From Chrysomallon squamiferum (taxonomy: Eukaryota > Animalia > Mollusca), in the NCBI GenBank assembly GCA_012295275.1, contig CM022672.1, positions 5,828,001 to 5,892,000 on the forward strand: 64,000 nt of DNA, given 5' to 3'. Positions 9,590 to 38,242 of this stretch are shown here, in pieces (position 1 is the stretch's first letter; each line of letters starts with the position of its first letter). The notes under the pieces were generated by a model. That model ran no database searches. It was not told where the DNA came from and saw nothing but the letters and a program-made list of their open reading frames with translations. The position numbers were made by a program, and so were the translations under genes.

Positions 9590-12044
9590 AAAATATGGAA
9601 AGAGTGCAATCGTTTCCCCATCTACTCGCTTGCTTTTTATGCATACCATATTATATCCTCCGACGCCAATTTTTGGCGGGAAAGATCGTACGAGGTCGTG
9701 ATTTATTTATTTATATCCGCGTTGTTGTTGTTGTTGTTTACCCTCCATATTCCTTTTAATTTTTTAATTTTCTTTTCTTCTTCTTTAAACCAGTTTTAAC
9801 GGATAATCCTAGAGATATGGTTTATAAATTCAGTTTTAAATAAAATCTTTTTTTGTTGAATACTTCATTGTAGCATTCGCTGCATTGTGAGTTGACTTCC
9901 TTGAATTAACAACCTCACAAAAACATGATGGTTCATGGAAATTATTTCATGGAATTAAAGTAGTTCAGATCTCAGTGTAAGTGACAACATAACAAAATAA
10001 ATAAATTATAAATCATATATATATCTGAATGACCTGTATATCGTTAGTTAGGCCTTGACTATAACTTTTTTCATTGATAGCCCTCTGTAAATGTTGGTAG
10101 TCTCATCAGATTTTTTAAAATAAGACAATAAAAGAAAATTAAAATCACACACACACACATACATAACCTCCCAACCCCCCACTCTTATCATGAGTACTCC
10201 ATTTGAATTTTAACAAAATATATATATGAACAATATACATTTAAAAGAACATGCAAAGAATAGATGTCAATTTATTGATAAAACTTTTTAAAAGTAACCA
10301 GTATTTATTCATCTTATAGGTCCTCCTGATCTTAAAATCTTTCATGATGTTTAGATTACACTGCCAAATGTAATTGATGAATGGACTGCCATGTTTGGTA
10401 ATAACATGAATTGAGAAAATTTAACTTTTTAGTGTTCTTTTTATTTAACATTTATAGCATTTCTACTGAATTTTTTGTTTCCAGTTTTGTTTGTTTTGTT
10501 AACTCAACTGCAACGCTCTTTGCTTTTTCAGTGTTTGTTTATTAAAGGTTTTACATAAAACATAAAATGATCAAACTGTAATTTCTTACATGAGAAAGAG
10601 TGTTTTTTTCTTCATCACCTCCTTTTCCCAGGACAGCGTGGAATCTCTGTTTAGATTTTTTCACAGCTATTTCTTGTTTCTCTTGTTTCCATTTCACTCA
10701 CTTTGCTTTTAAATAACGGTCAAATACTTGGCTATGGCGTAACATCATCAGAATGAGCATTAGCCAACCAAATACTGTTTTTTTAAAAAATGTGTAATTC
10801 TAATCCCCAAAATACAGGCTTTACAAATTGTTTCATGTAGATCTAAACCAATATTTTTAGCTCATTTTTCATTTGAATCAGATTGTTTTGAAAAATACAA
10901 AAAAATCCCCACCAAAAACAAGTATACTCTTTTAATTCAGTAGTCATATTAGACCATAGAATAGTTAAAATTGTTATGGTAACTTGTATCAAGACATACG
11001 TATGGAAATTATGTAATCACTGGACATAGTGAAGAAAAAAGTCATAGTCCAGTTGACTACTGGGTTTAGATATAGGTAACCAAAACACTCTGGACTAAGG
11101 TCAAGCCCTATTAGTCACAGATAATCCATTCCTTCCTGTAAATCTTCATATGAAAATATCAAAAGACTCCCCAGTCTTATTAATATACTTTGTGGAGTTT
11201 AATTACCTGAAAAACCTAAAGCAAAATTGAGTATTATGTAATAAAAACATATATGTTTATATATGCATGATGTATGTTTGCAGTCAGCAGAGAATGGGTA
11301 TATTGTTCATAATTTTAAAACTAAAATGCCAAGTGTTAACAGTTAAGTGAGATTTATATTAATTATGAAAATAACATTGAAACATTTTCATTTTCACTAG
11401 GTATATTGTGTCGTAACATAGAGAAAACTCCCTATCAAGCCTGTCGTTTGCAGCTGCTGCTGATTATGTGTAAGCTAGTAGATGGTGAGGATTATTATAT
11501 TCGGTACTCTGAAGACAGTATTATCACAGTGCTGGAAGGTGTTGCCCTGTCGTTTGATGCCATTTTACAGTATATGCATGACTACCCACACATACTGAAG
11601 GCATCTGAAGAATACAGGCTACAGATTCTCAAACAGGTAATGACATCTGTGTCATTTATTTTTTTCCAATTATATTATATATATCATTTAACTGTAACAG
11701 TTTACAAATTAATATATGCATATTTCAATATTTGTTTATCAAATCTCTGATGAATAAGAAATCATCTCATTATTCTCGAATGTAATGGATTAGCAACATG
11801 GGCTTTTTCATGTACACTTTTCCCTAAGAAGGTAACCTTTAATCAAATATATGGCTTTGACTGGAAATGATTCTTAACTCTCTGTTATATCTGTTATTTC
11901 CATGAATGGAAAAGGAAAGTTCTATCCAAATAGACTGAACTGGCAAACCATCATGTCTCAGACAGTTGCTTTCTCCACTTAGTAACTTAGCTGCAACATA
12001 TTTGTCTCATAAAATAATTAATACATTTTAACTAATTTTGAAGC

Positions 12045-12098
<54 letters not shown>

Positions 12099-15000: not shown

Positions 15001-16109
15001 TTTAAAACCATATTAGTTTATTTCTACAAAGATTCAATAAACTGTACGAATAGCAACTAATACTTGAGTTAATAGTAAGGGGATATTGAGATATCTAATG
15101 TAGAAAATTTAGATAAATACCAGTACTTAACACATACAAAATCAGTTCTTTAATTACATTTGATTACATTTACATTATCATGCTAATAAATGAACATTGC
15201 AGCAATATTTTATAAATATAATTATATTATTGAAATATGGACAGAATTATTTATTTAAATAAAGGGATTCTGTGATTATTTTCATCTTCATTTTAACACA
15301 AGGGCCTTTTAATTTAATGTATTTTTAGCTCTGAAAAGGAAACCACTGCACCACCAATTAAGAAAAATCTTCATAGATTCCAATACAATAAAAACAGAAA
15401 CCGTCATGATTGCCTGGATGATAATTCACAGTCTCTGATTTCAGATAGTGATATTGGTATGTACTTGAAGACAGTGTTATATTTTAAGTATTTATAAAGT
15501 GCATCAGAATATAATAATTAAGCAGATGATACAGTGATTATTGCCTTTGGAAAACAGTTTTTGTTTACTGATGAAAATAATTAACAGTTTTAATTATGTT
15601 CCCCAGTTATTTCTGTTCAGCCAGTTTTCATAATTAACAACTGATCACAGTTCCCAAATTATGCATACCAACACATATTTCATTAATGAAAATACCCTTA
15701 TTGTGTAATGAAATTAAATTTATTTTGTAATAAAAACAACATGTATGCATGATTTTAACAGTTGGTTTGTTGTTCTTTTCATTTCTTTGCAGAAGAATTG
15801 AACAGACCTCCACATTTGAAAAGAATACAACACCAACATAGAGTATGTGAAGGCCTAAGATATACAAAACAAGTTCCACAGACAAGCTTGAGGAGTTTAC
15901 GAAATTTATGGACAGAAGAAGAAGAAGAGGAATTTTACTTAAAAGTTCAAGAATATGGAATAGGAAATTGGTCAGCAATATGCAATGCCATGAAAACTAG
16001 GCGTACAAATGTCAACTTGAAAGACAAATGGAGGCAATTAAAAAAAAGTGAACGAATGAAATATCTAATAAAGAAATATGGTCATATCTCAAAAATAATT
16101 AGGAAATGA
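9124..16109 (+). CDS. TERF: Telomeric repeat-binding factor (TRF1/TRF2-like): N-terminal TRFH domain and C-terminal telobox Myb domain, ~509 aa
   Basis: Exons 9124-9259, 11401-11636, 12151-12240, 12502-12657, 12907-13071, 13429-13522, 13934-13979, 14503-14598, 14869-14934, 15329-15456, 15793-16109 join in frame (the linker exons are less certain). TRFH-like motifs: GYMLELIC, ITVLEG, LKQAVFVCCKAGDFDAANEVYQR, NSYDKFL. Telobox Myb: WTEEEEEEFYLKVQEYGIGNWSAI..RTNVNLKDKWRQL. Confidence 0.88.
9537..9586. repeat. (TA)n microsatellite
   Basis: Directly visible. Confidence 0.95.
12045..12131. repeat. (AAT)n followed by (ATT)n inverted microsatellite pair
   Basis: Directly visible; ends ~20 nt before the TRF exon 3 acceptor at 12150. 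Confidence 0.9.
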
Positions 16110-16979: not shown

Positions 16980-17760
16980 AATAATGTAATGACGAGGTCT
17001 AGTACTAAATTGCTAGATTACTATAAAAACAATAAAAGCTATAAATATTTACACGGTCTTGTTATTGATAATTTTGGTTTTCGAAGTTAGGTTGTAAGGT
17101 CAGACGTATTTCTGTACTACAATGCACTTCAATCGAACACTGCACTGGCGTTTAATATTGAGAAAAAGCTTAGTTCAATATCCGATCCAATTTCGGTTGA
17201 TTCGAATGCGTTCTTGCTTAGTCTCGATTTCTACAAATGCATACAACCATTTTCATCGAGACAGAATTTACCGACGATAACCACCGAATCGAGCACTTGA
17301 AATACGAAGATTTCCGTGTTGTTTGTCCAAGACGTTTATTTTACTTAGAAGGTGCTCTTTTTAAATGTTTAAGTCATGAAGTTAGTTGCATAAAAATTAT
17401 CACGAATATATCCATTTTCCAAAGTGGTTGTAAAAGATTCAGTTTATAAGGTCACGAGAATAGATATAATTATGTTTATGTCTCATGGCTAACCTTGGTA
17501 ATCATTACGGTATTAACTAATTAATATCTTGACTGTGCACGTAAATTCTTGTAATAAACTATTATAAAGAAAGGAAATAAGAACCGCTGCGTGATACGCA
17601 CGCGCACCATACTGTTAAGCCGATTGATTTGGCATTCTGAGATTAGGACTATAGGCTTTATAAATTATATCAAATAAAAGAGATTATGACGGTTGAAAAG
17701 AATCGGATATAAATGACAACTCGGTCAGTACATGTAAAAGACTAACATTTTGAACAGGTG
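16980..17760 (+). promoter_or_regulatory. CpG-enriched promoter/5' leader upstream of the mannosidase gene; candidate acceptor ttttgaacag ending at 17758
   Basis: Many CG dinucleotides relative to the flanks; NRF1-like ACGCACGCGCAC at 17596-17607. Confidence 0.45.
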
Positions 17761-17805
17761 TAGTGATGACATGTTCATGTTTATGTGCATGCAGCACCAA
17801 CAGTG

Positions 17806-20800
17806 ATGGGATTTAGAAGAAAGTCGATAATTGTTTGTTTTATAGCATGTTTAATTTTGAATGTCTTCTTGTGTTTATGGGTGTATTTAATAGCTGAAAG
17901 CCAGTTAGAAGCCACAGTGATAATTCAGCATGAAACTCATGTCGCAAAGTCGTGGGGATTTGGATTCATCAAGGAAAGCTGTCAGCTTTACCATGTCCCA
18001 AGATACAATGACCAATCAGAACAGAGAATTATGGAAAACCGTACTGAAATGGAGTTTTTTGAACCTGGAGAAGGTACTTGTAGTATTCAGTTGGCAGCAG
18101 AAATGCATCATGTTGATATACAGATGGAGAAGGAGTGGGACAAAATACACACTGGCTATCCACAGTATGTGTACACTGTCAGTGGTTGGAAGCAGGTGAT
18201 AGATATCCCATCATACAAAGTCAAAGGCCATGACAGACCTCTCCAGGTTATCATTGTTCCTCACTCACACCAAGACCCAGGCTGGCTGCATACTTCTGAC
18301 AGCTATTTCACAACATACACCAGAGAAACTCTGTCACTGGCTGTCTCTAAACTTAAAAGTCATCCACACTGGAAGTTCATCTGGGCTGAAGTCTTATTTC
18401 TGGCTCGATGGTGGAAACAGGCATCTTCTAAAGAGAAGGACAATCTTAAGACTTTAGTGAACAATGGTCAGTTTGAAGTTGTTACAGGAGGATGGGTGGT
18501 TTCAGATGAGGCCACTGAGCACTATGAGTCCATGCTTGGCCAGCTTATTGAGGGACATCAGTGGCTGCTGAAGACTCTTGGGAGAGTTCCTACTAATGCT
18601 TGGTCTATTGATGAGTTTGGTTACTCTCCAACAATGCCTTACATGTTGAAGAGATCAGGATTGGAAAATATTGTCATTCAAAGAGTCCACTACTCTGTTA
18701 AAAAGCACCTTGCTTCATCACTGAATCTTGAATTCTACTGGAAACAGGTTTGGGATGGCAAAAACAAAACAGATATTTTTACCCACATGATGCCTTTTCT
18801 GTCATATAACATCCCATCTTCTTGTGGTCCAGATCTTTTTATTTGTTGTCAGTTTGATTTTTCCAGAAAAAAATGCACATTGGGTCAGAAAAAGATTCCT
18901 CTTGCTACAGTCACAAAGGAAAATGTTGCATCTTTGTCCAGGAAACTCTGGGAGCAATTTCAGAAGAAAGCCCAGTTGTTCAGAAGTAATGTTCTTTTGG
19001 TTCCACATGGAGATGATTTTAGATATTCTGACAGTTCTGAATGGGACAACCAGTTGGGTAACATGGAAAAATTGATGACATACATGAATGAAGCTAAAAC
19101 TATGCATATCATTGTTAAGTTTGGAACTTTATCCGATTATTTTGATGCTTTGAAAAATGATAAACAGCACATATCAGAAGATTTACGAAGGTTTCCATCT
19201 CTTAGTGGTGATTTTTTCCCATACAATGACCGTGATGACCAATACTGGACAGGATACTTTACAAGTAGGCCTTTCTTGAAGCATATAGCAAGGATTCTAC
19301 AATCTCGGTTAAGATTAGCAGAAATTTTATATTCTCTTAGTCTTGTTGAAGCTCTCAGAACTAGATCAAACTGGTTTAGTTTTCTAGAAAATAAATATGA
19401 AAATCTTGTATCTGACAGACAAGCTCTTGCTTTATTTCAGCATCATGATGCAATAACTGGTACATCAAAGGCTTCAGTTGTGAAAAACTATGCAAGCATT
19501 CTGCATACAGCTTTAAAAGATATTAACTCTTTGTTAGCTGCTGTTATTACTTTCTTTATGCTAAAGTCATCTTCACAAACAGCTGGTGAGTCGCTGATGA
19601 TGTTAACTGAACTGAGTTTATTTCCAAATAAACCCCCAGAGAAAATAGTTAATGATGTTACAGATAAAAAAATTGTTGTTGTCTCTAACCCTTTGACTGT
19701 TCACAGAAATGATGTCGTCAGTGTTAAAGTGTCTAATCCTTACCTCAGAGTTATAGAGAGTATCAGTGGTAAAGGAGTTCTTTATCAAATCAATCCAGTT
19801 TTTAATAGAAAAAAGGACTGGGAGCCAAACCTGTATGAAGTGTTGTTTGCAGTCAGCTTAGCTCCACTCTCTTTGAAAACATATATTTTGATGCCAGTTG
19901 TTGAAAAGACCCAGGATGTTTTCTCAAAGGTGTTGATGATTAACAAAGAGCTGATAGATGTAAATAGTATTTTCAGTATCAGTGTTGCTGGAGCTGAAGT
20001 GACCGAAACGGAGATACACAACAATTATCTAAAGGCTTCATTTTCCACTTGCACTGGGTTACTAAAGTATGTACAGAGAAAAGCAGATAAATCAAATGTT
20101 AATGTTCAAATGAAATTTGTGACTTACGGAACAGGTTCCTGGAAGAATCCTTACAAAGATAAAAGTGGGGCATATATTTTTCTTCCTGACGGACCTGCTA
20201 AAGAAACAAATCTTTTGTATCCTTCCATGTTTGTTGTTTCTGGTTCTGTGTCTTCCAGTGTATACACAGTGCTGCAAGGTGTAGTACAGAAAGTCACTTT
20301 ACACAATGTTGAAGGACCTCTGAGCAGTGCTGTTTTGGTTGATAATGATGTTGATATTGGTTCAAGTACATGGGATAACAAAGAACTTGTCATGAAATTG
20401 GAAACTGATATAAATAACAGCGATGGAACTTTCTGTGTTGATTTAAATGGTTTTCAGATGCACAGGAAGAAAAGGCGAAGCAAAATGAAAATCCAAGGAA
20501 ATTTTCATCCTTTGACTTCTTCCGCTTTTGTTGAGGATCTTGCCAGAGGGGAACGTCTGACTCTGCTTGCAGGAGAAGCTCATGGAGTAGCAAGTCTTGA
20601 TGTGGGTTGGCTTGAAGTGGTGTTAGATAGAAGACTAATGCAGGATGACTGGAGAGGTCTTGGTGAAGGTGTCAAGGATAACGAAGCAACTCCCAGTCGA
20701 TTCATAATTGTCATAGAAAACATGACGTCCTCACGACACAGCGACATTGCAGCTTGCTTTTTATCAATGCTGAGCAACATTTTGTCACAGTATTTAAATA

Positions 20801-21177
20801 ACCCAATTATTTCATTTGTACCTGTTTCTTCACTTGTTAAACACATTGCACCCATGAGGTCTTTCATGAATTTTCAACTTCCATGTGCTTTACAGCTTTT
20901 GAATCTACGATCATTTCAGCCAAGTAAGAACAGTTTTGTCACTGCTCTGTTGATTGTGCACCACACTGGATTGGACTGCAGCTTTCAGGAATTGCCAGAG
21001 AATAAAAACAGTTGTAAATCTGTTGAGAAATTAAACCTTGCAATGTTTGATGGCGTAAAGATAGTGTCTGCAACTGAAATGAATTTGAGTGGTGTACATA
21101 AGAAAAAAGCAGCAAGTTTGAATGAAGAAACAATTCCACCCATGGAAATACAAACTTACAAAGTTATTTTAAAATAA
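17806..21177 (+). CDS. MAN2A: Golgi alpha-mannosidase II-like (GH38), type II membrane protein, intronless, 1123 aa
   Basis: Single ORF. The first ATG is at 17806 (the track start at 17785 is GTG) and is followed by a short basic tail and a TM helix (SIIVCFIACLILNVFLCLWVYLIA). GH38 motifs: HSHQDPGW (Zn ligands), WSIDEFG (nucleophile Asp), GDDFR (acid/base), YWTGYFTSRP, QHHDAITGT, SGAYIF, LDRRLMQDD. Confidence 0.95.
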   Translation: MGFRRKSIIVCFIACLILNVFLCLWVYLIAESQLEATVIIQHETHVAKSWGFGFIKESCQLYHVPRYNDQSEQRIMENRTEMEFFEPGEGTCSIQLAAEMHHVDIQMEKEWDKIHTGYPQYVYTVSGWKQVIDIPSYKVKGHDRPLQVIIVPHSHQDPGWLHTSDSYFTTYTRETLSLAVSKLKSHPHWKFIWAEVLFLARWWKQASSKEKDNLKTLVNNGQFEVVTGGWVVSDEATEHYESMLGQLIEGHQWLLKTLGRVPTNAWSIDEFGYSPTMPYMLKRSGLENIVIQRVHYSVKKHLASSLNLEFYWKQVWDGKNKTDIFTHMMPFLSYNIPSSCGPDLFICCQFDFSRKKCTLGQKKIPLATVTKENVASLSRKLWEQFQKKAQLFRSNVLLVPHGDDFRYSDSSEWDNQLGNMEKLMTYMNEAKTMHIIVKFGTLSDYFDALKNDKQHISEDLRRFPSLSGDFFPYNDRDDQYWTGYFTSRPFLKHIARILQSRLRLAEILYSLSLVEALRTRSNWFSFLENKYENLVSDRQALALFQHHDAITGTSKASVVKNYASILHTALKDINSLLAAVITFFMLKSSSQTAGESLMMLTELSLFPNKPPEKIVNDVTDKKIVVVSNPLTVHRNDVVSVKVSNPYLRVIESISGKGVLYQINPVFNRKKDWEPNLYEVLFAVSLAPLSLKTYILMPVVEKTQDVFSKVLMINKELIDVNSIFSISVAGAEVTETEIHNNYLKASFSTCTGLLKYVQRKADKSNVNVQMKFVTYGTGSWKNPYKDKSGAYIFLPDGPAKETNLLYPSMFVVSGSVSSSVYTVLQGVVQKVTLHNVEGPLSSAVLVDNDVDIGSSTWDNKELVMKLETDINNSDGTFCVDLNGFQMHRKKRRSKMKIQGNFHPLTSSAFVEDLARGERLTLLAGEAHGVASLDVGWLEVVLDRRLMQDDWRGLGEGVKDNEATPSRFIIVIENMTSSRHSDIAACFLSMLSNILSQYLNNPIISFVPVSSLVKHIAPMRSFMNFQLPCALQLLNLRSFQPSKNSFVTALLIVHHTGLDCSFQELPENKNSCKSVEKLNLAMFDGVKIVSATEMNLSGVHKKKAASLNEETIPPMEIQTYKVILK

Positions 21178-24100
21178 TCTCTTTTATCATCATCATCATC
21201 ATCATCATTTTTGTTATTTTTGAATTATACATAAGTGTTACTGGTATTTTAAGAAATATTTGCAATGTGGTATGAATCATGTTGATTATGCATCTCATAG
21301 TATTATTCAACAGCATATATCATTTAACAAATAAACATTCATAATTACCAGAATTTAATTTCAGTAAAAAAAATTCTGTTAAATTTTAACACAGATTTGA
21401 TTTTTAAAGAAGAGATGATTATTTTTACATATCACTATAGTTTAGATTTGTTTTATGAAGAAAAATTAAACAATGATTTTTAACCAGTTTTATTTAGTCT
21501 TTTGATTCTTTTTTTTTTTTTTTTTCCCCTAAATTCATTAAGAATAATAATAAAAAAAAAATGATGAAAAATAAATAGGATCTTTGTTTGAAAAGTATTA
21601 ACATAATTTTAAACCTTTTTAATTTTTTTCCCCCTGTTCCACCTAAATGAGATAGGATCTTTGTTGAAAAGTACTATAAATTTCAGTTTCTCTTTAGTAT
21701 CTAAGGAGGATTAAAAAATCCATAACAACATTGTGAAGTTCAAATATCTTGGGCAGTGTTAAAAATGCAGTTAACTAGATTAATACAAAATCCAGTCACA
21801 ACTTCTGCAACCAGCTTTGCTCTGAAGATTTCCTGCACAGGTTTTAATCCTGAATGGCATTTAATATTACTTGTTTTTGTTTCTTCCTTTTGGTTTATTT
21901 GGCAACAGATTAGAAACAAATATTTCCTAATATGTTATATTTTTACCCTTTAAGTATTTTAGAACTTTTAATTTTTACATTTTTTAAAATACAAATGCAC
22001 ATTTTTGATAGTTTAATTCTTCTTTTGTTATTGGATCACCTGTAATTATTATAATATATATATATTTTTTTATTGTTATGACACTTTCATAACAACTGAT
22101 ATGTCAACTGACAATTTGTCTTTGTAATAAAATTTCTAAAGCCTCAGGTTACAGAAACATACAGATATGCATATTGAGTAATAGGGAGTCTGTGTATGCA
22201 TGTCTGTCTGTGGGTTTGTATGTATGTACATGGACATGAACTCATAAAAGACTTCACTTTATTTTATTTCTTTATTTCTGCATTGCATTATAATTCATGT
22301 CCTGAGTTTTTATAATAATTACGCACATTTTAACATTTGAGTTTGCATGAGTTTTATTTTGTACTACACATTTTTGTCTTTTTCAAGTCACCTCTAATTA
22401 CAACTCTTTAAAAAATTATTCTTATAAAACCACATATCTTCTTAATGATTATGATATGATGTTTAAAGGTATTAGTAGTGTAAAGTATTGTTTTTACACT
22501 TATTAGTTTTATATTCTACATGTGAGTATGCCATTTACAGGTTGAATTTTGCAAAGTCAACTTTCCAAATCCCACAAAGTCCCAACACTTGTCTACGGCT
22601 CAGCAAATTCCCATCCTATGCAACAGTCCCATTAACTGGTATTGTTTTCACTCGAGTTTTAAAAAAGTGCTTCTTTCTGTGCAGTGCAGTGCAGATCCAT
22701 GCCATGTGCTTTGATTGTTTAACATTTGTATACATTATTATACCATTTAATAGTCAAAATGTGGCTCCAAATCACCTCAGTGGCACTGTTCCAAAAGTCT
22801 GCAAATTCTATTAACTAGCATGGTGCTGGTTCTAGTGATACTGAGTTTGGGAAGTTCAATCTGTATTAAGGCTTAAAATACATTGGAAAGCTTTCAAATT
22901 TTGATTCCAAGAAGATATTCTGGTGTAGGCTAAGAAAATGAAAGTTTGTTTTAATGATAATAAATGAAAAAACAAAAACAAGTCTGATGTTAATCATCCT
23001 TTTCAATGATTAGTTTTAAATAAAAATTTATGAAAATAAAAATGTTAAGACTTCTTTTGCACAGAAAGTGGCAGTGGAAAGCCAAAGTTACTTTAGGATA
23101 AAATGGATTATTAAAAAACATACTGTCTGTTATGAGTGACTTTGTTGCCTGCACAACCTTGCTTGTAGAGATTATGTTACTATTAAGGATGGCTGGAATG
23201 TGTTCTGTACACATATATGCAACTGTTTTATTTGTTTCTTGTTTAATTTTATCTGTATGATCTGAACAGTTTGCCTTTGTATATTTTGAATACTTCCAGT
23301 TAGGAATTTCTTTTCCTCTTTTGCTAATAATAAAGTACGACTTGAAAACGTGTAATTTTAAGAGGCCACTGTCGTGCATTACTTAGAAATGTAAATAAAT
23401 TGATTTGGCAGTCTTGCTTTTCTTTTTTACTTTCACAGACTTGGAGAAAATCACTGAACAAATTGCCAATTTTATCAGCTTCTTTGAATTTCTGTGAACA
23501 TGTCACTGAAAAATATTTTGTCAAAGACAGGTGTCTAGAGTTTAAATTGTTAGCTGGAAGTGTAAAAAATAAACAGGCTATTTATAGGAATTATCACAAA
23601 TAGTATATACACTTTAAAATCAGTATTATATATATTATATGTGAAGTGTTTTTATTTGTATAATTATTATTATCCTTCACTTCTTTTTATTTTTTCCTGT
23701 TATGCAATTATATTGGTATGTACATATATGCAGCATTGTTTTCTTTTTCTTCCTTTCTTTATTTGGCAATAAATGTTTTTAATGTTCTAAAAATGTTTCA
23801 TTCAGTTTGTTAATCTACAATACCTATAACACCTATATCACAACGTCAGTTCTGTTCATTGTACACATTGGGATACATCCCATTCTAATCATTGTCTCAT
23901 TAACTGATAAAGCAAATTGTTAATATTGCAGACTGGTCTTGGTACTTATTTCACAAGGTGTTATGGCTATTTTTAAACATACAATTTTTTTTTTTTTTTT
24001 TTTTTTTTGCATAACCTGGTTATTAATAATTTGATTATTATTTTCTTTTTCTTCTTCTTATGTTTATCCTCGTATTTTATAAGCAGATGGATTTAAATTA

Positions 24101-24199
24101 TGTTATTGTCCAATTTTATTTATTTACAGTTTGTAATATATATTTGGTTAGAGACCAGTTTTATTTAAAAACACTAGTTTCTTTTCTTTAAATTTCAGA

Positions 24200-24460
24200 A
24201 AGTTATGAAGACCATTCTAGAATCAACAGACTTTAGAACATATTAAATAGATATATCAAAACATCAGGATGTCTTGGTGAAGGTCTCAGTAAAGAGCAAT
24301 TAAGAACCTTGGTCCAGAAAAATGGATATTACTAGATTTGAACATGGGAGGCCACTGGGTTAGAACAAGGAAGAGAAATGGATTAGAGAATTGCCCTGAG
24401 TAGGAGAGATTACTGGTACAAGATCAGAGAGAGGGAAATAACTGGTTTAGGCCTGGAACG
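24200..24460 (+). mobile_element. Degenerate non-LTR (RTE-like LINE) 3' fragment
   Basis: Broken-frame translation gives ..CLGE..FEHGRPLG/RTRKR/WI..LVQDQRE.., resembling the LINE ORF2 C-terminal 'WLGHV..GRRPxGRPRKRW..LAQDR' pattern, with stops and frameshifts. Confidence 0.35.
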
Positions 24461-24836
24461 GAATAAAAGAGAGAACTCACATGACCACATCAGAATGTTA
24501 ACAGCAAATTTGATGTGAGCTAATATTATGTTTTTCAGTTTCAGTTTGATACATTCAAGGATTATTGCCAGATAATTGTATTTTATAGTCACATGACAGT
24601 TTCCAGTGATCGATGTAGTTTAAGTATGTACAAAGTCTCATTTCAGTGAGTTTTTGAAATGTTGTGAAAATGTATGTAACCTTCTAAACTAACTCATATT
24701 GATTATGATAAGGAAATATAATTATGAGAGTGAGAGAGAAATGGTGAGAGAAAGAAAGATGAAAAGCATTCCCTTAAAAATAGTCCTATACATATATTAC
24801 TTTAAAAATTATAATTAAGATAAATATATTTTTCAG

Positions 24837-27337
24837 AACAGAAAATCTGCACTTATTTGGTGAGCATGTTCTGCAATGCTCTGTTTACATTTCACATGGT
24901 ATTCATGATGATGGCAACAATCTTGTACTGCAGTATGTATGTGCTCTTCTTAACTCTGGTGGTGGCATCTTGCAGATGAAGAATGTTCAGTATGAGACAC
25001 TTTTGTCTAAAGATCTGGATACATGGTGGAGTGGCATGGAATGCAACTTTGCTACCATCCTGTCTGGCGATGACATCTGCAATTATTTTGACTTCATTGG
25101 CAACTTTGATGATCCTAACATCTATCTTTTTGTGAAATCTGCTGAACATCTTTGTACGGTGGATTACCACTGTCGTCTGCCAACTGAAACAGCTACTCAC
25201 GATGTTACTTACCAGTCAGTTGTCAAACTCATCACAAGACTGGGAGACACTGGAACACTTGCAGATCTGCCAGCCATACCATCAGAGTTCCATTTCAGGA
25301 AGACAGAAGATGTGTTAAAACAGGAAGGCAAACAGATTCAGTTTAAACATGTCACTGCCAACTCTTTGACATCAAAGTCTGTACCTGATAAAATTCAACA
25401 GTGTGTCACTCGCTATATTTCTGCTTTTGCGAACCATGAAGGCGGCCATATTTATTTTGGTATTGAAGATTCTCAGGCTCTTGTTATGGGTGAAATAATG
25501 TCACATCGTGATCAGGAAAAAACTGGTAAATATTTATTTACATGAAGTATATTCTTAAATGAGTAAACGTTTGTTAAACATGAAATAGATTATAAGATTA
25601 TAAAAACTAAAATAAAAAGATGACAGTATATTAACAGAAACTTGTACTAAAATGAACAGGTAACAATTTATCGATAGGTTCTGAGGTAACATTAAGAAAT
25701 ATACCAAAACAAAATATATTAAAAGTGACTTCTAAAAGAAATAGATTATTAATGGATGATATTGTTATTGTTGGTATTACTACGAAAATGTACCGATGCA
25801 CTGTCTATGGAAATTTTCATTTTTTGATATTTTGTTATTTACATACTATTATACTCATATTAGAAAACTTGTACAGAAGTTTGTGTTTTCAGTTCGTGGT
25901 ATAGAGAAGAAAATGAAGAGTTTTATATGGGGAAGCACATCATTGAAAGCGGAAAGAGGCAAACATTGGGACATTAAATTCTTTTTGGTGAAAGATTGCT
26001 GGCCTGTATGTTTTATGTTTTTCAAGAAATATTTTATTATATTACACTTTACATATAAGTATACACACATAACTATCAAAATAATGAGATATTAAGATCA
26101 GTAAGTTTTAATATCAATAAAATGTAATAATATGAGTATGTTTGTTAACTGAAAAAAACTTTAAAACTATCTAAAGTTCATTAATATTTGTTATAAATTG
26201 ATAAAAAAATAGGACTGGCATGTCAGAATCTGGGGCTATCAGAACTTTTGAGTGAATGTCAGCAAAATGGAATTTGACTAGGGTGTTGAAATCCTTGCTT
26301 TATCTGTCGCCCATAAACAGTGGCTATCAACACAGTTCCCACTTAAAAGGTAGAAAAATATGTTTCAAAATTTAACTAGATTGGATTTTTCTGTGTTCCA
26401 GGATAGAAGAGTGGTTGTCGTGGTTTCAGTTTGTAAGTTTCCTGGAGGAGTATTCACTTCCTGTCCTGAAAGTTTCCATGTTAATGAGAAAGGGCAAGTG
26501 GAAAATTTTACCTTTGAAGAGTGGAGAGATCTTCATTTTGCAGCTGTCAGAGGTATATCCAGATGTCATTTTGCTGTGGTTTTTAACATCTGTTTTCATG
26601 CACAATGAAATTTATTAAATTATTAAAACTATTATATATTGAAAGTTTATTAAAACTGAATTTAATCTGTACCTGCAAACAAAATAGTTCAGCTGTGTTT
26701 TGTATATCTCCAATAGTCTGTTGATAAACACACACATAAGAGATGCTTGGAGAAGTTAGTCATATTCTCATATACAGAAAGATCTGATTAATTATTACAT
26801 ATGGTAATTTTGCCATGATTTTTTCACTATTGCTAAAATAAAAAATTTACTTTAAAACAGGAAATCTGTACATCATCATCGTCGTTTTTATTTATTGTTA
26901 TTGTTATTGTAATGATATTATTACGCTTGTTTTGTTTTGTTTTTGTGATCTAATATTTAATATTTGATATTCATTTATTTTTCAGATAAACCTCAGCTTC
27001 ATGCACGATTTCTCAAACTAGCAATAAATACTCCTCAGTCTCGCCTGGTATTCACACTCCCTCACACAGTTCACAGTATCAAACACAAAGTACTCAAGTG
27101 TGAGTATAAATATAAGTGAATTAAACTGTGACTTAACAACTGGAGATTTAATCTGGATGCATATATGTGGGGGTATGTATATGGGTGTGTATGTGGTCTT
27201 TTGTGTGGGTGTTTTTAGGATAGAATATTCTCTGCCAGATATATGTTTTTATGTATGTTTATATGTATATTTTTATGTATGTATGTAGATAGGTAGGTAG
27301 GTAGGTAGGTAGGTAGGTATGTAGGTAGGTAGGTAGG

Positions 27338-27372
<35 letters not shown>

Positions 27373-29417
27373 GTGCATTGACAAGCACAATAAAAACCTA
27401 TAATGTAAAGAAAATAAAGAACTTAATGATGATAATGGTGATGACGACGACGACAACAAGAATAATAATAATAATAATAAACAAAATATGGAGAATATCC
27501 ACACTATAAAGTTTTAACCGCAGTTCATTTTGTTTTCAGATTCTTCTGGATTCAACCTCCAGCCTAAATATGTTTTAGAAAATCTCTCTGAGCCAGCAGT
27601 TAAAACTGTAGTTAGAAATATATTATCAACATTCTCTGATGAACCTCATCTTGCTCTGGATATCCATTCTTTTGGAATTGACTTAGATTTACAATCTACC
27701 ACAACCAGTCATTTTGACATTCTCATACTCAGTCCACACTATGGCCTCCACATGGTCTCCATGACAACCAAACCAGCTAATGATAGTTCAATACTGACAT
27801 ACTGCAGATCACTGGCTTTTTCTTTGAAGAAAAAACTGGTGCATCATGGGGGATGTGTTGAAAGGTTTGGAATACAGATCCATATTGTTAATATTCACGA
27901 TCCTTTGTGCTTGGAAAATTTTCAGACCGAACTTGATAAAAACATTTTTCCAATGACATATGACAACAGCGATGTCGTGTTGGATAAGATCTTATCCAGT
28001 CTTGTTATAGCCATGTCTGCTTACAAACCACATGAAGCTGAAAGTAAAAATGAGGAATATTTCTTCCTTTTGACCTGCGACCAGTTCGAACTCTTATGGA
28101 ACTATCAGTTTATCAAGGAATTGTGGGTACATGGACCTCCCGGTTCAGGGAAGACTGTATCCTGCCTGTTGATGATCAAACACCTAACACAGCGAGGATG
28201 TCACCAAGAGGAAATTTTGTACATTGCAGAAAATGATTTACTGTGTGCTTATGTCAGGTAATAGCAAAATATATCATTATTTTTAAGTATAAGAGGCATG
28301 ATTAAATGACTTACATCAGCTCGTTAAGCATCATTCCATTTACTTGGGCCTTGGAGGGTCACAAAATAACCTTTCTTCTGTTTGACTGCAAATTTTCTCT
28401 CCTAGCCTATAAATGCACTATAATACTATAATTATTATTAATATGATAACACTACAAATATATTGTTTTGTATTTCATCATTAATTTTAGAATTTTGAAT
28501 TTTAAAATAAACCATTAACAGGTTTCAACAAAAAACCAAGCTCGACACCCACTATACTGTAAAACATTTGTACTATACTTGTACTGTTTTCTTTTTTTCA
28601 TTTTTCTTTCAGATCTTTTGATCTGTGTACAGTAGTAACTAGAAGAGAACTCATGTCTGATACTAAAGATCATTCAGAGACTGAAGGAAAATACAGCAAA
28701 ATCAAAAATGTTTTCATTGATGAAGCTCAGAACTTCAAAGACAGGGATGGAGACTGGTATTCATTGGCAGAAAAATTAGCCAATCAAAATGTGGATAATC
28801 AGTTTTCTCGTAACAGTGGTTATTTCTGGGTGTTCATGGATTATGCTCAGAAGGTTCACAAGTTTGAAGCTGGGCTGCCAAGTGTCATAGGAAAACACAA
28901 CTTCATGCTCAGTGAAATATCCCGAAACTCAAAAGAAATCTTTGAGTATGCTTCCAAATTCATGCAAACTTCCGATTCAAAAAATCTTGTTAAACCAAAT
29001 ATCAATAATCCTGTTGCTAAACTTGGCCATGATTACTCTACTGGGAAGGATGTTAGTATAATAAAATGTAGTCCTTCAGCGGTGAAGGACACTCTGCTCA
29101 AAGTTCTTGAAGGGTACACATCTGAAGGAATAAAACAAGAGGACATGGCAGTTCTGATGGGAAAGAAAAAGGATGCTGAGACTGTACGTGACACAGTTGT
29201 CACTGATTTAGACACAGGCAGTTCTGATACTGTAACCGTGGATACTGTAAGAAGGTTTAGTGGACTTGACAAACCAATCATCATTGGTTTGGATCCTCAC
29301 ATTAATGAGGATCATGCAGACTTCAACAAGTTTATTGTCAATCTGGCAACGCGAGCGAAAGATGGTTTGGTTATTATTACTACCTCAGATGCTCTGTTAA
29401 ACAAGCTCAAGGGTTAA
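24837..29417 (+). CDS. SLFN: Long-form Schlafen (SLFN5/11/13-like): Schlafen/AlbA_2 core, SWADL-like linker and SF1 helicase/ATPase; >860 aa, first coding exon not located
   Basis: Exons 24837(or 24842)-25525, 25893-26005, 26402-26552, 26986-27099, 27540-28257, 28613-29417 join in frame. Motifs: CALLNSGGG, IYLFVKS, EGKQIQFK, YISAFANHEGGHIYFGIED, VFTSCPESF, SFGIDL, LLTCDQFELL, Walker A HGPPGSGKT, Walker B FIDEAQNF, GDWY, WVFMDYAQ, SRNSKEI, DTVRRFSGL, LATRAK. Confidence 0.92.
27276..27370. repeat. (GTAT)/(GTAG)n plus (GT)n compound microsatellite in a Schlafen intron
   Basis: Directly visible. Confidence 0.9.
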
Positions 29418-32948: not shown

Positions 32949-35900
32949 TCAGCAATATTGTGACTGTGGCATGGAGAACGTGCTTTGATTGTCCGAGACA
33001 TTTTCCTGATCAGAGAGTGGCTTCTGTTTCTTCTGTGTCAGTTCATGCATGTGCTGGGCAGCTTTGTGAAGTTTCTCCACGAAATCTGGGACCCCTGTCA
33101 TAAAGGTATTTCAAAATGAAATTTGTGAAAACAAATTACACAGAGACAGTGTAAAGTATCTCTTAAAGACATTTTTAACAATACACATTTTAAATTTGCA
33201 GTCCTGCAGATCACTTCATTCTTATTATTTCACTGCCATATTCTCTATGATTATAAAGTTGATTATACTTGAATATTTAAAAACAAAATTTTCAGTACAA
33301 ACGAATATATATACATCACTAAAGTTTGCTCCATGCTTTTTTCCACTTAGCTGATCTCATTAATATCAAGGCGAAACATACACATTTCCACACCATTCCA
33401 GATACAATATGATTACAGAGTGAAAACTTTGTCTCTCATTCTTTAATGTATATTTATAAAATCTTGACACTGCAATTCAGATTAAACATAGCATTCACTA
33501 ATGTTTGGTTTTGTCTTTTTCAAGAATTGAACAGTCAAACATTACGTTTATACAATTTGTAAATTTCTTGCAAAACCAGTGCAAAACTTTAAAGTCTTAG
33601 TTTTTTTGTTTTACTTTTCACCCCAGAATATGCAGTATAAAATGTAGGATGCTAATACATGGTAATATAACAAAATATAAATGTAAATTAATGTATTAAA
33701 AAGTCTCCAGTCATCAGGATTAAAAAAAACATTATTTAGTTCTACATATTCCTAGTAGTAAATATTTCTCATGTAAATAAAAAGTGTATGTTATGGTAAG
33801 AAATATACAAGAGCACTTATTGGAAAACAGAAAAATTAAATAAAATCTTTGCATATTTTTGCATTTTCTATCCATAAATAGTTATGACATTATTTACATT
33901 TTATACAAATAATTTTGTCCAAATATTCAATTTTTCTTCAATATTAGCTGTTCTGTAATTTATGTTACAAATATATTTATCTGTTATAATACAACTTCAG
34001 AACACAAAGGATGTTTTACCTGTGCGAGCCATCCAGTTATAAGCAGGTGATGGGAATGCTGCCTGGGGATCATCAAAGTATGTCAGACAATAGTCAAATC
34101 CATTCTGAAATTCACAAAAAACATGCTTTGTAACACAGTATTTCAATTAATAATGTGACTAAGGATGGACATTTTCTACTTTACTGCAGAACACAAATAA
34201 ATTTCTAGTAGTAAATTTTGACATAAATGTTTGTTTATTTCTTGCTAACTGTACAGCATTTACTAATATTTAACTTCCTATTTCCATGTAATCTTTTGAA
34301 AAAATATAAAATCTGCTTCTGCTTAAATGATTTAAAGCCCTACAATTTTCTAAAGCCACAGTTGGTCACTATGAGGTTATATCTCATTTACCTCATCAAA
34401 TGAGGTGTGAGGGTGTATGACCATCGTTGATGTGTATGTAGAAACCCGAACAAAGTTTTCATCAATTGGACACGTAGGATGTTCCACGGCTCGGTTTGTG
34501 ATAAGAAGCATCTGGTTCTCATGGTCAACTTTGTATCTTCTCACATAAACATAGTCTCGGCTGTACATCGGAAACTGCAACAAGATATGACCGATGGAAG
34601 ACATCACATAACAATATCAGCTGTTTCATTAATATGCATTTTATGAAACTGTTAATCTTACTTTATGGAATAGTCTTTGATTATCAGCAAAAGATTTGTT
34701 TTATTTGCATCTTCCAAGAGAAAAGACTGAATTGTTAGGTTTCCATATCTTAACCTTGATTGGGAAAATTGGCAGATTAATACAATCACTGACTTTAAAA
34801 AAAAATAAGAAGATTGAAAAAGTGCTCAATGCTGAAATTCTAAATTTAGTCATAATATATTTATGTATTAATAACAATATAACAAGAACAAAAAATAGTT
34901 TGTAAAAGTTTTTTTTTTGTAACTTTCTATGATACATATAAATAACAGCTTTATTAAAAAGTTCCCAGGAAAGTTTGCGATACAAAAATCAGGACTGGGG
35001 ATGTACATTGATAATATAATCACAGTTCTGTACTTCCATTTTCTTCCTGGCAATAATTCAGCACACATCAATTATCATAATAAAAAATACCAAAACACTT
35101 ACAGGATATTTCATTTTCCAATAAACAACTTCTGAATCAGATTCTTCATCGTGATCAACAACTTGAATATCGATTGTCAGTCTGTCCCACTGTTTTCTGA
35201 ATGACAGATCCACCTGAATCAGTAATAGAAAGAAAGAAATACACATTTTCAGTAAGTCAGTTTATTAAAACCATTGTTAAATGCATTGAAAAACAAAAAA
35301 ACCCCATCAGTCTTAGTTTTAGAACTGGATATTTTTTTGACAGATAAATTCGTGATAAATATTTAGTATATCAGCAGATATTCAATGGGAAAGAAAAATC
35401 TTTCACCTGTCAAAACATAAAAGAATTAACACATTTTAACATCTTTTCACATTTTAAAAGAGCCTGTGATAACATTTTTAAATAATGATTTTTTAAATAT
35501 TATTTTGTAAGATAAGAACTCTCACATAGCAATTAAAGGAACAACATTTTTTTTTTTTTGAGAAAAACACTTGTATTCGTAATTCAATCATGATGTAATG
35601 AGAAAACATCCCAGTTTGGTTTTGAGAAAACTGATGCTGCAACTTATCTGACCAGTGCTCTAAACCACAGGCTTTAATTAATTTAATAAAGTTTATTACC
35701 TGTGTATTATAAAATGCCCTTGCAGGAATATCACTGAATGTTCCATAAACTGTCAATAAATTTATAAAAATAGATCAACTACCTGGTTAAAACATTTTAA
35801 ACCATGAATTTATAAAAATTGTAATTGTCAGTGTTGGTTAACAAGTATTTCAAGCTTGAAAGCAAGTACTAATTATCATATTTCACAATCCAAGTGTAAC

Positions 35901-37137
35901 ATGTATTATATAATTAAACTGTATCAATTAATTATGAAACAAAAGGATGTATAATTTTTTCTTTCTTCAGTATACAGATCTAAAAAATGCATTTCACTTA
36001 GTGACATGCACCTTCTCAAGACAATGAATGAAAACAAATTATCTACTTTAAATAAAAGAATGTAAAACGAGTAAATACTTTTTATTTATTATTATATTTT
36101 TAACCTCTGTATTGGTAGGTGTAGCTATCATGGACAGGTCTTCTCCAAACTTTCAAATGCTGTTTGTCAATAACTTTCTCCCATCCAGAACAATCTTGTT
36201 TCTCAACTTGCATGGGTTGATGAACTAAACTCTGAACTTTGACCATCTCATCTTCAAACCTAAAATGATTAATCATTAAATATGTAAATTTCTGGTCAAA
36301 CTAATAATAAAATTTGAAATATATAAATTTTAACAAATATAACTAATGTCAATTTACAGATAAGATATATATTAAATTAACATTAATAAATAACAATGTT
36401 AATATTATCAATTTCCTTATTTTTTTTACAAGTGGTATAAAAATAGCTAAACTTTAAAACTGTATGATTGTTGAAGTTTTGAAGCTATTATTATAATGTA
36501 GTTTTAATTCAAAAGCTATTACAACAGAATGTTCCAAAGTATTTAATAAAACTGCTTAATAAATTAAAACATCTGTATATGAACTATCTGCATTTTCTCA
36601 TTGTACATGTCAGGTTCACTTGTGGATGTGATAACTATGACCTTGTGAGGGGCGACATATTTGAGGGAGGCAATTTTGTAAATAATTGAAATACATTTAA
36701 ATTTACCCTTTTAGCTCCTCGTCTGTAACTCGTTTGTCATCCCAAGAAAAAAATGCTGCACCCAGTAAGGCAAATAATGATTTGTTGGTGCGTAACAAAG
36801 ATCCTTTAAATCGGTCAGCAAATTTTATCAACATTACCTCTCCATAGAGCCTTTTGTACAGGTTAAGAATTTGCGATGCTCTTCTTACTTTCTGTACAGC
36901 TATTGCGTTGCACTGCTTAGCGAAACATTCACTTACAGCGTTTACAACCTCTGAGACAGACTTTTTTATGTGGGTGACACTTTGCGTACAACTCTGTCCG
37001 AACATTAACCTGGCACACCGGTTACCAACCATGTCTGATACATTTTGCACGCACACTGCAGTTGTCTTGTTGCGATGTACTTGCAAGATTCTAGTCCATA
37101 ATAATTTCATATTGAATAAAATCGTCTCATTTGACAT
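32949..37137 (-). CDS. STARD7: StAR-related lipid transfer protein 7 (phosphatidylcholine transfer START domain with N-terminal mitochondrial-type extension), 386 aa
   Basis: Exons 37137-36707, 36259-36105, 35749-35700, 35213-35103, 34574-34392, 34104-34020, 33094-32949 (TGA) join in frame. Motifs: VRRASQILNLY, FSWD, WEKVIDKQHLKVWRRP..YQYRVYGTFSDIPARAFYNTQVDLSFRKQWD, YPFPMYSRDYVYVRRY, FDENGFDYCLTYFDDPQ, GVPDFVEKLH. Confidence 0.93.
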
Positions 37138-38242
37138 CCTGATACTGTTACCTTAAAATATAAATTAATAATTCTTCGAAAAACTTTCAACAGTTCCAAC
37201 GCACGAGCACATACGAATAGTAGAATTTTGTAGACCACACCATAAATTGATAAATAAGAATGTTTGAAAAAAAAAATATTAATCAGGATAGATGGAATTC
37301 GTAAAAGTATGGAACATGATTCCCTTATCTATTCTAGAATCAAAGAGATTAAATAAAAAATTTCAAAATAATATTTATATTTATTTGCTTAGTTTTGGCA
37401 GTTAAATACTTTTCAGTTGGTAAAGTCTGTATGCTATCGGAAATGACGACCTTGATTAAACTGGAGTACTAAACATCAAACTGAAATACAAATCCACTTC
37501 AGTTGAACGGAGATGATTGCATCATAATATATAATAATGGTTGTATAGAAAAAAATCAGATGTAACAAAAAAAAAAAAAAAAAAAAAAAAAAAACCAACA
37601 ACGTAAATTTGTTATTGAAATGTCTAATTTTATTTAGGAGGATTTTAGAATGTTAGAAATAGCACACACATTAAAATTAACAGATTTTGTCCGAAATAGA
37701 GGTTCGTTAAGTGTATAAATTACATAAAGAAGCATATATTTATTGAAATATGTTTCTGTTTGTATAAAATATCAAATATTAGAATTACTATTACTACTAC
37801 CTCTGCTGCTATTTTTATTACTACAACTATTATTACCACGGCTACTAGTACGGCTGCCACGTATTATCAGCTATTTCAGTATTTGGCCCTGTATGACATT
37901 ACATTGCTTTTAATTAAGAATGTTACCAAACAAATTGTCACAGAACTCTTTTTTTCAAGAAATGTGGAATAAAGCAAAAGTATAAGTTTGGCATGTGGAA
38001 GATGTATACGATATTCTGTCGTGACAAGTATCAATGTTTCATAATAAATAACACAGAACAGAGCTAGCATTATCAACAGCAAAAATTCATTGTACGCATG
38101 CATTAAACGAAAACTACATGTAGTTTAGTAGCAAGTACCACGAGAAAATACGCGATTCCACCATAGCAACAGACTGTCACAACATGGATGCTATGTGCTT
38201 GAAAACAGTGTATAATCAATGGGAATAAGCTAGTATTGAAAT
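37138..38242. promoter_or_regulatory. Divergent promoter region STARD7/CFAP43, with RFX X-box-like CCATAGCAAC at 38161-38170
   Basis: Head-to-head ATGs ~1.1 kb apart and CpG-enriched. ATAGCAAC matches the conserved half of the RFX X-box ~75 bp upstream of the ATG of a ciliary gene. Confidence 0.55.

What the first reader, a model, noticed from the sequence alone, without database searches (positions are those of the whole stretch)
24837..29417. Full-length SLFN11/13-type Schlafen (nuclease core plus helicase) in an invertebrate genome
Seen: complete long-Schlafen architecture with motifs closely matching mammalian ones (CALLNSGGG, SAFANxxGGxxxxG, SFGIDL for SWAVDL, HGPPGSGKT, DEAQNF, GDWY, DTVRRFSGL, LATRAK). 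Known: long Schlafens are interferon-linked tRNA/rRNA nucleases and replication-stress sensors described mainly in mammals, with patchy presence in other vertebrates. By motif alignment, the position equivalent to SLFN11 K652 (ssDNA binding; ..CRAETRK vs ..CTVVTRR) is basic. Inference: a candidate ancient innate-immune or DNA-damage sensor in a lineage without canonical interferon.
Basis: partly seen in the sequence, partly recalled or inferred. Interest (0 to 1): 0.85.

Follow-up and report, generated by a model that had tools for sequence, protein, structure and literature searches.

The report
Ancient snail Schlafen with altered nuclease
A sea-snail gene, spliced in RNA data, encodes a full three-part Schlafen protein of the kind that the literature treats as vertebrate-only; it belongs to an old, slowly changing mollusc–acorn-worm lineage whose RNA-cutting site carries a glutamine where human SLFN11 needs a glutamate, so it likely senses single-stranded nucleic acid but is predicted to cut RNA differently, or only weakly.

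Summary
RNA contigs of 4 runs (one study) join every intron. The host is a gastropod close to Gigantopelta aegis (75% identity; the nested flanking gene agrees). Pfam, PDB and fold searches confirm Schlafen core + linker + SF1 helicase. It is not an SLFN11/13 orthologue in any strict sense. It sits in a strongly supported mollusc–hemichordate clade that follows the species tree and evolves slowly. In 35 of 35 aligned full-length members the catalytic motif is E-x4-Q-x-K, not E-x4-E-x-K, and the zinc finger is absent; Walker A/B and the K652-equivalent arginine are kept. Other full three-domain Schlafens turn up in cnidarians, echinoderms, hemichordates and hagfish, against a published jawed-vertebrate origin, and three intron positions appear shared with vertebrates. 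RefSeq already auto-labels these proteins 'SLFN13-like', but my searches found no paper characterising them. Verdict: new variant of a known kind; likely a conserved nucleic-acid stress sensor with a variant nuclease site rather than a fast-evolving antiviral tRNase. No function was tested.

The parts
17269..17351 (+). Non-coding exon 1 (5' end approximate, taken from the longest contig overhang)
   Evidence: Joint 17349->24197 (GT..AG, cut +2) in 4 of 4 RNA runs
24199..24514 (+). Exon 2: 5' UTR with 6 upstream ATGs, then start codon at 24495 and 7 codons
   Evidence: Joints on both sides in 4 of 4 runs; N-terminus matches G. aegis P0001; uATGs counted
24837..25525 (+). Exon 3: Schlafen core N-lobe (CALLNSGGG) and start of C-lobe
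   Evidence: Pfam SLFN_AlbA_2 E=1.6e-12; splice sites
25324..25347 (+). Variant active-site motif E170-x4-Q175-x-K177 (SLFN11 E209/E214/K216); D218 (SLFN11 D252) at 25468-25470
   Evidence: Alignment: E, Q, K, D each 35 of 35
25893..26005 (+). Exon 4: core C-lobe; positions of SLFN11 zinc ligands H285/C287 are S251/S253
26402..26552 (+). Exon 5: end of core; positions of zinc ligands C321/C322 are P288/G289
26986..27099 (+). Exon 6: core-linker connector; both its boundaries match break points in vertebrate/hagfish isoforms
27540..28257 (+). Exon 7: linker domain (SFGIDL at 27668-27685 for SWAVDL), interdomain region, Walker A HGPPGSGKT at 28130-28156
   Evidence: Pfam SLFN_GTPase-like E=1e-08
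28613..29417 (+). Exon 8 coding part: R613 (K652 equivalent, 28644-28646), Walker B DEAQNF (28719-28736), helicase C-lobe, stop codon
   Evidence: 3' UTR covered by a contig to 29701
17806..21177 (+). Unrelated single-exon GH38 alpha-mannosidase II gene nested in intron 1 of the Schlafen gene
   Evidence: ORF; Pfam; best hit G. aegis 66%; lies inside the spliced-out 6847 nt

Best explanation
This is a spliced, transcribed gastropod gene for an 869-aa three-domain Schlafen of an old mollusc–hemichordate lineage; it likely works as a conserved nucleic-acid stress sensor whose helicase-like module is predicted to bind ATP and single-stranded nucleic acid and whose core is predicted to bind structured RNA and likely cut it through a variant E-x4-Q-x-K site, more weakly or on other substrates than SLFN11. 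Shown: gene structure, splicing, domain order, residue states, clade membership, slow evolution. Inferred: (1) ssDNA/ssRNA binding, from conservation of 7 of 10 SLFN11 ssDNA-contact positions; (2) ATP binding, from intact Walker A/B and a predicted SLFN5/SLFN11-S753D-like open arrangement; (3) coupling of sensing to the core, by analogy with SLFN11; (4) residual RNase activity, from the invariance of the whole site; (5) a surveillance role (replication stress or RNA quality control) rather than an arms-race antiviral role, from evolutionary rate.
For: Splicing. Domains; model pLDDT 84, pTM 0.81 aligns to SLFN11 S753D (TM 0.74; Z 25.8, rmsd 4.3 over 758 residues) and SLFN5 (Z 26.0), against rmsd about 21 to the SLFN11 dimer form. 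ssDNA contacts named in PMC9482658: N633->N594, T650->T611, K652->R613 (R in 33 of 35), R674->K644, S853->T813, R855->R815, R856->R816; K605, T606 invariant, E669 33 of 35. Active site E170, Q175, K177, Y200, D218 each 35 of 35, whereas the dead SLFN5 site is reported to drift (PMC8789055). Q at this position in 57 of 66 core-only/other-tail relatives and 10 of 15 non-vertebrate-clade three-domain proteins, with E and K kept. The Schlafen is more conserved than the nested mannosidase in 15 of 15 genus-matched comparisons; clade support SH-aLRT 100, topology close to the species tree.
Against: E214A abolishes SLFN11 cleavage, and family members lacking one of E209/E214/K216 are reported as nuclease-deficient (PMC9482658); E209 and E214 hold the manganese ions (PMC11615386); bacterial Schlafens keep Ex4(E/D)xK (PMC13056530). 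So no characterised active Schlafen that I read about has Gln there. 3 of 10 ssDNA contacts differ (Q634->D595, T653->E614, R656->S617), two of them to acidic residues. SLFN11 dimer-interface residues R82, R590, K591, Y722, E725, E726 are not kept. The S753D/SLFN5-like form is in SLFN11 the state that does not bind ssDNA. The mannosidase yardstick is one gene and may itself evolve fast. 'Schlafen proteins' were up-regulated in mussel gills after Vibrio (PMC7772429; gene identity unknown), which fits an immune role. Nothing was assayed.
Confidence: 0.45

Rival explanations
1. Pseudo-nuclease, SLFN5-like: the core only binds nucleic acid, and the protein acts as an ATP-binding chromatin/transcription or RNA-binding regulator.
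For: E214 is essential in SLFN11 and ligates Mn; here it is Gln in 35 of 35. Predicted arrangement matches monomeric SLFN5 and SLFN11 S753D. Dimer-interface residues needed for SLFN11 tRNA cleavage are not kept.
Against: The other site residues are invariant across molluscs and hemichordates, unlike SLFN5; the same E-Q-K-D signature is kept in 42 of 66 core proteins with unrelated tails, which is hard to explain for a site with no chemistry, although substrate binding alone could do it.
Confidence: 0.33
2. One reading: a functional SLFN11 equivalent, i.e. an ssDNA-activated dimeric tRNase acting in antiviral defence or DNA-damage-induced cell death.
For: Same architecture, best PDB match is SLFN11, basic K652 equivalent, intact Walker motifs; mussel gill up-regulation of unnamed Schlafen genes after bacterial challenge.
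Against: E214->Q, no zinc finger, dimer contacts not kept; slow single-lineage evolution, unlike the duplication and positive selection reported for mammalian SLFNs; clade is not the exclusive sister of vertebrate SLFNs in the best tree.
Confidence: 0.2
3. Artefact or transfer: vertebrate contamination, horizontal transfer, or independent fusion of Schlafen and helicase domains.
For: Patchy distribution: no named cephalopod, annelid, brachiopod, arthropod or amphioxus member among the hits or the 30 proteins named; only 20-35% identity to vertebrate SLFNs by domain.
Against: AT-rich introns spliced in the organism's RNA; flanking gene is gastropod; gene tree follows mollusc phylogeny; homology runs across all three domains; three intron positions coincide with vertebrate isoform break points.
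Confidence: 0.02

Closest known systems
Human SLFN11 (group III Schlafen; PDB 7zel, 9erd)
   Same: Core + linker + SF1 helicase in the same order (E=4.5e-57); E209, K216, Y234, D252, Walker A/B and 7 of 10 ssDNA contacts kept or conservatively changed.
   Different: E214 is Gln; zinc finger absent; SWAVDL is SFGIDL (mostly C/S-W-G-L/I in relatives); dimer interface residues differ; interdomain region has Pro at 526 in 24 of 35 and varies from 20 to 66 residues; about 24% identity.
Human SLFN5 (PDB 7ppj)
   Same: Three domains, one catalytic residue changed, predicted domain arrangement closest (Z 26.0, rmsd 4.4).
   Different: SLFN5 lacks the lysine and its triad drifts between species; here Lys is kept, the second acid is Gln, and the site is invariant. 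SLFN5 has the zinc finger.
RefSeq/GenBank 'schlafen family member 13-like / 8-like / 5-like' proteins of molluscs and hemichordates (e.g. G. aegis P0001)
   Same: Direct orthologues: 75% to G. aegis, about 50-59% to other molluscs, same signature residues.
   Different: Automatic names only; the numbers 13, 8, 5, 11 do not reflect orthology. No characterisation found in my paper searches.
Other invertebrate Schlafen-domain proteins: C. elegans PUCH; bacterial pSlfn; SAMD9
   Same: Share the AlbA_2 nuclease lobe.
   Different: No linker + SF1 helicase; characterised active members use acidic catalytic residues.

Membership tests
Long (group III) Schlafen proteins | Two-lobed Schlafen core with AlbA_2 C-lobe | tested here: met
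   Pfam PF04326 E=1.6e-12; model covers SLFN13 N-domain at Z 18.4, rmsd 3.3
Long (group III) Schlafen proteins | Linker (SWAVDL/GTPase-like) domain | tested here: met
   Pfam PF21026 above cutoff; motif degenerate (SFGIDL; W in 30 of 35 relatives)
Long (group III) Schlafen proteins | C-terminal SF1 helicase-like domain with Walker A and B | tested here: met
   PF09848 25.3 bits vs cutoff 24 on the G. aegis orthologue; K567/T568 35 of 35, E639 33 of 35
Long (group III) Schlafen proteins | All domains on one transcript | tested here: met
   RNA contig joints and a 3220-nt contig
Long (group III) Schlafen proteins | Core zinc finger (H285, C287, C321, C322) | tested here: not met
   S251, S253, P288, G289; G at the C322 position in 35 of 35. 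Also absent in the hagfish protein, so it looks like a jawed-vertebrate addition
SLFN11/12/13/14-type tRNA/rRNA endoribonucleases | Ex4ExK catalytic motif (E209, E214, K216) | tested here: not met
   E-x4-Q-x-K in 35 of 35; E214 essential per PMC9482658
SLFN11/12/13/14-type tRNA/rRNA endoribonucleases | Metal-dependent tRNA/rRNA cleavage | not testable with these tools
   Needs biochemistry
SLFN11/12/13/14-type tRNA/rRNA endoribonucleases | Dimer-interface residues (R82; R590, K591, Y722, E725, E726) | tested here: not met
   A79; Q552, F553, gap, F699, M700 by alignment; alignment in the N-lobe is about 24% identical, so R82 mapping is less certain
SLFN11 (ssDNA sensor) | Basic residue at K652 and ssDNA-binding groove | tested here: met
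   R613, R in 33 of 35; 7 of 10 contact positions kept or conservative. Binding itself not tested
SLFN11 / SLFN13 orthologues | Phylogenetic grouping with vertebrate clade 4, or Unc45b-Pex12 synteny | tested here: not met
   Separate clade; exclusive sisterhood to vertebrates p-AU 0.014 but not rejected by KH/SH, and not rejected when Amphiura is included (p-AU 0.35). Neighbours here are a Myb-domain gene, mannosidase, a START-domain gene and CFAP43
Interferon-stimulated Schlafens | Induction by virus/interferon-type signalling | not testable with these tools
   Only assembled contigs were available; they show presence, not level

The most novel reading that the evidence does not exclude
The complete nuclease–linker–helicase Schlafen predates the cnidarian–bilaterian split by a wide margin over the published jawed-vertebrate date, and E-x4-Q-x-K is a second, catalytically active form of the Schlafen RNase site, used by this conserved mollusc–hemichordate sensor and by a large unstudied invertebrate family of Schlafen cores with other tails.
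Probability: 0.4. Interest if true: 0.72.

Novelty: new variant of a known kind. Interest (0 to 1): 0.52.

Why it matters
Mordier et al. (PMC12492265) found no Schlafen hits outside jawed vertebrates with a 40% identity filter and date the cluster to about 450 Ma; a 2022 review (PMC8875196) says no other non-mammalian organisms than Xenopus and elephant shark have them. Full three-domain proteins in molluscs, hemichordates, echinoderms, cnidarians and hagfish move the origin of the architecture back to early animals. The conserved mollusc orthologue is present in oysters, mussels, Aplysia and Biomphalaria, so the ancestral job of long Schlafens (genome or RNA surveillance versus antiviral translation shut-off) becomes testable outside the interferon system. 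The natural E-to-Q site offers a direct test of Schlafen catalytic chemistry. The age claim is well supported; the functional claims are not yet.

Tried and rejected
Homodimer prediction of the core (residues 1-330 of the G. aegis orthologue, 2 copies): no answer, score 0.01; no evidence either way. No genome was held, so copy number in this host was not tested. ESM Atlas did not complete. Burroughs & Aravind 2020 (PMC7685563) could not be read and may already mention invertebrate long Schlafens. My first residue table used an uncorrected numbering offset and was discarded; one search is the corrected one (its rows Q576 and R889 still carry labels that are off by a few residues and are not used). 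My first exon coordinates were off by one and my first search for the start exon assumed the wrong phase. Ultrafast bootstrap timed out, so supports are SH-type and the AU test used 5000 replicates with a warning. Paper searches for exon coordinates and for E214Q/E209Q (zero occurrences in the 20 listed of 129) gave nothing; one search was badly built and returned no Schlafen papers. The mussel paper's one held supplement has no Schlafen entry; other supplements were not seen. Earlier scan findings: none on this gene. Rejected: vertebrate host, pseudogene (no stop or frameshift; listed RNA variants in the CDS 10 synonymous, 5 non-synonymous, none at key residues, 44 rows not shown), horizontal transfer.
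Full report
Gene structure. Three long open stretches lie at 24784-25545, 27518-28261 and 28563-29417 on the + strand. With three short exons between them, six AG/GT-bounded exons (24837-25525, 25893-26005, 26402-26552, 26986-27099, 27540-28257, 28613-29417) give 862 codons and one terminal stop. Assembled RNA contigs of 4 runs from one study show all six coding introns and a first intron of 6847 nt (joints in 4, 4, 2, 3, 3, 4 and 3 of 4 runs, 5' to 3'). One 3220-nt contig has listed pieces in exon 2, exon 3 and exon 8, with 1093 nt between them, which equals the four exons in between. Contigs show presence and splicing, not expression level or strand.

Host. The best relative of exon 3 is Gigantopelta aegis 'schlafen family member 13-like' (83% on that exon; 652 of 869 = 75% overall). 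The mannosidase nested in intron 1 also has G. aegis as best hit (66%), followed by other gastropods. The host is therefore a gastropod related to G. aegis. No genome was held.

Architecture. Pfam finds SLFN_AlbA_2 and SLFN_GTPase-like on window exons and all three Schlafen families on the G. aegis orthologue. The orthologue matches human SLFN11 at E=4.5e-57 over residues 182-864, then SLFN5 and SLFN14. Its AlphaFold2 model (36-sequence alignment, pLDDT 84.2, pTM 0.81) superposes on SLFN11 S753D (TM 0.74; Z 25.8, rmsd 4.3 over 758 residues) and SLFN5 (Z 26.0, rmsd 4.4), but poorly as a whole on the SLFN11 dimer form (rmsd about 21). PMC11615386 (passages) describes the S753D form as monomeric, ATP-binding and unable to bind ssDNA, with the interdomain helix broken. 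In the invertebrate proteins this region has Pro at position 526 in 24 of 35 and ranges from 20 to 66 residues, which fits a broken helix. This is a prediction for the orthologue, not the window protein itself.

Residues. I aligned the window protein with 31 mollusc-clade and 3 hemichordate full-length proteins (left out: two second entries of the same species, P0014 and P0029, and non-full-length hits P0037, P0045, P0046; core-only hits P0038-P0044 were aligned but not counted). SLFN11 numbering was carried through a primate SLFN13 and checked against the SLFN11 alignment. Results: E209 = E170, K216 = K177, Y234 = Y200, D252 = D218, each 35 of 35; E214 = Q175, 35 of 35. Zinc ligands are absent. 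Walker A K/T 35 of 35; Walker B E 33 of 35. K652 = R613 (R in 33 of 35). Of the 10 ssDNA contacts named in PMC9482658 (passages), 7 are kept or conservative and 3 are not (two become acidic). Dimer-interface residues are not kept. The same paper shows E209A, E214A and K216A abolish cleavage while D252A and Y234A do not. Bacterial Schlafens keep Ex4(E/D)xK (PMC13056530, passages). So the defining catalytic motif is not met. Against a simply dead site: SLFN5's inactive triad is poorly conserved across species (PMC8789055, passages), while this one is invariant. Among the 150 best representatives, 108 cover the site: position 175 is E or D in 25 of 27 vertebrate-clade proteins, Q in 10 of 15 other three-domain proteins (E in 4), and Q in 57 of 66 proteins with the core but other tails. 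E and Q alternate between sister sequences in one clade. That E-to-Q is a usual inactivating change in metal nucleases, and that Mrr-type nucleases use a QxK variant, is recalled, not from a call.

Distribution and age. Named full-length members of the window's clade come from 25 mollusc species (gastropods and bivalves), one more, and 3 hemichordates, usually as one entry per species (Mya and Batillaria have two, probably the same gene; not checked). The database is clustered at 90% and the search is word-seeded, so single-copy status is likely, not shown. I named 30 of the 150 representatives. They include three-domain Schlafens from Actinia and Actinostola, a partial one from Stylophora, Amphiura, Patiria, a second hemichordate set (Saccoglossus x2, Ptychodera, Glandiceps) and the hagfish Myxine. 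Trees (63 rows FastTree; 34 rows IQ-TREE fast mode; midpoint-rooted) give molluscs + hemichordate set a SH-aLRT 100, with window + G. aegis 100, gastropods 100 and bivalves 93. Vertebrates + Myxine have 99.4. The mollusc–hemichordate clade is not sister to vertebrates in the best tree; that constraint has p-AU 0.014 (KH 0.07, SH 0.27), but with Amphiura added it is not rejected (p-AU 0.35), while pulling molluscs away from hemichordate set a is rejected outright. The deep order is unresolved. Indirect intron evidence: two hagfish isoforms differ by exactly the segment between window codons 325 and 363; a gerbil SLFN11 isoform and electric-eel models break at 363 (the eel models also differ at 325 and 602); a turtle protein ends one residue after 602. 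These match three of the window's introns and argue for one origin of the three-domain gene. I could not see vertebrate exon coordinates directly.

Rate. The window Schlafen is more similar to its counterparts than the nested mannosidase is to its own in 15 of 15 genus-matched pairs (for example 75 vs 66, 59 vs 49, 53 vs 47, 50 vs 42%; two pairs use different species of one genus). This is one yardstick, but together with short branches it contrasts with the duplication and positive selection reported for mammalian Schlafens (bioRxiv 10.1101/2024.01.12.575368, passages) and with the long branches of hemichordate set b.

Literature. Mordier et al. report no hits outside jawed vertebrates, using a filter of more than 40% identity (preprint passages; journal version PMC12492265 passages); the invertebrate proteins are 17-35% identical to vertebrate ones by domain, below that filter. 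A review states the same restriction (PMC8875196, passages). Searches for schlafen with invertebrate + mollusc (7 papers), evolution + metazoa, mollus/cnidaria, non-mammalian orthologs and oyster (5 papers) listed no study of mollusc long Schlafens; I saw most of these only as listings. One mussel transcriptome paper mentions up-regulated 'Schlafen proteins' after Vibrio without naming the gene (PMC7772429, passages); Mytilus also has core-only Schlafen genes. The library lacks most subscription papers, and Burroughs & Aravind 2020 could not be read. PMC10730379 (passages) supports K652 as the determinant of chromatin loading; PMC10567574 and PMC12680541 (passages) were read for PUCH and SAMD9.

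Mechanism and verdict. It works like a long Schlafen: a helicase-like sensor coupled to an RNA-binding core. It is a member of the long-Schlafen architecture class, but not of the SLFN11/13 tRNase group by its defining motif, zinc finger or tree position. I commit to a conserved nucleic-acid stress sensor with a variant, probably weaker or differently targeted RNase site (0.45), against a pseudo-nuclease (0.33) and a true SLFN11 equivalent (0.2). The existence of the gene is in databases under automatic names; the early-animal age of the architecture and the E-x4-Q-x-K site are what is new. Interest 0.52.

Noticed in passing
window 17806-21177 (+), inside intron 17352-24198: A single-exon 1123-aa GH38 alpha-mannosidase II gene is nested on the same strand in intron 1 of the Schlafen gene, starting about 450 nt after Schlafen exon 1; contigs cover 17408-18373 unspliced, so the two genes may share a promoter or first exon.
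   Followed up: partly
window 24199-24494: The Schlafen 5' UTR holds six upstream ATGs with short ORFs of 2-19 codons, one overlapping the main start; possible translational control.
   Followed up: partly
proteins P0039-P0044, P0080, P0087, P0113, P0125, P0131 and many: A large family of about 600-750-aa proteins has the two-lobed Schlafen core with E-x4-Q-x-K fused to an unrelated tail (weak TPR hits in P0131; P0042 named TPR protein); named members are from Mytilus.
   Followed up: partly
protein P0050: A 2337-aa unnamed NCBI protein with 20 Pfam AlbA_2 stretches, 13 of which show the E-Q-K-D signature; may be a tandem array or a mis-joined gene model.
   Followed up: no
protein P0091 / P0203: Hagfish Myxine glutinosa has a full three-domain Schlafen with E-x4-E-x-K but no zinc-finger cysteines, sister to jawed-vertebrate SLFNs, although a recent survey found none in hagfish.
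   Followed up: partly
proteins P0149, P0155: Two divergent unnamed three-part Schlafen-helicase proteins (997 and 980 aa, E-type site) from 18-22 kb ENA contigs; source organism unknown.
   Followed up: no
window about 11340-16109 (+), 33000-37150 (-), 38200-64000 (+): Neighbours: a multi-exon gene ending in a Myb domain (telomere-repeat-binding-factor-like by my recall; Myb Pfam hit, spliced), a START-domain gene on the minus strand, and CFAP43. No synteny with the vertebrate Unc45b-Pex12 cluster.
   Followed up: partly
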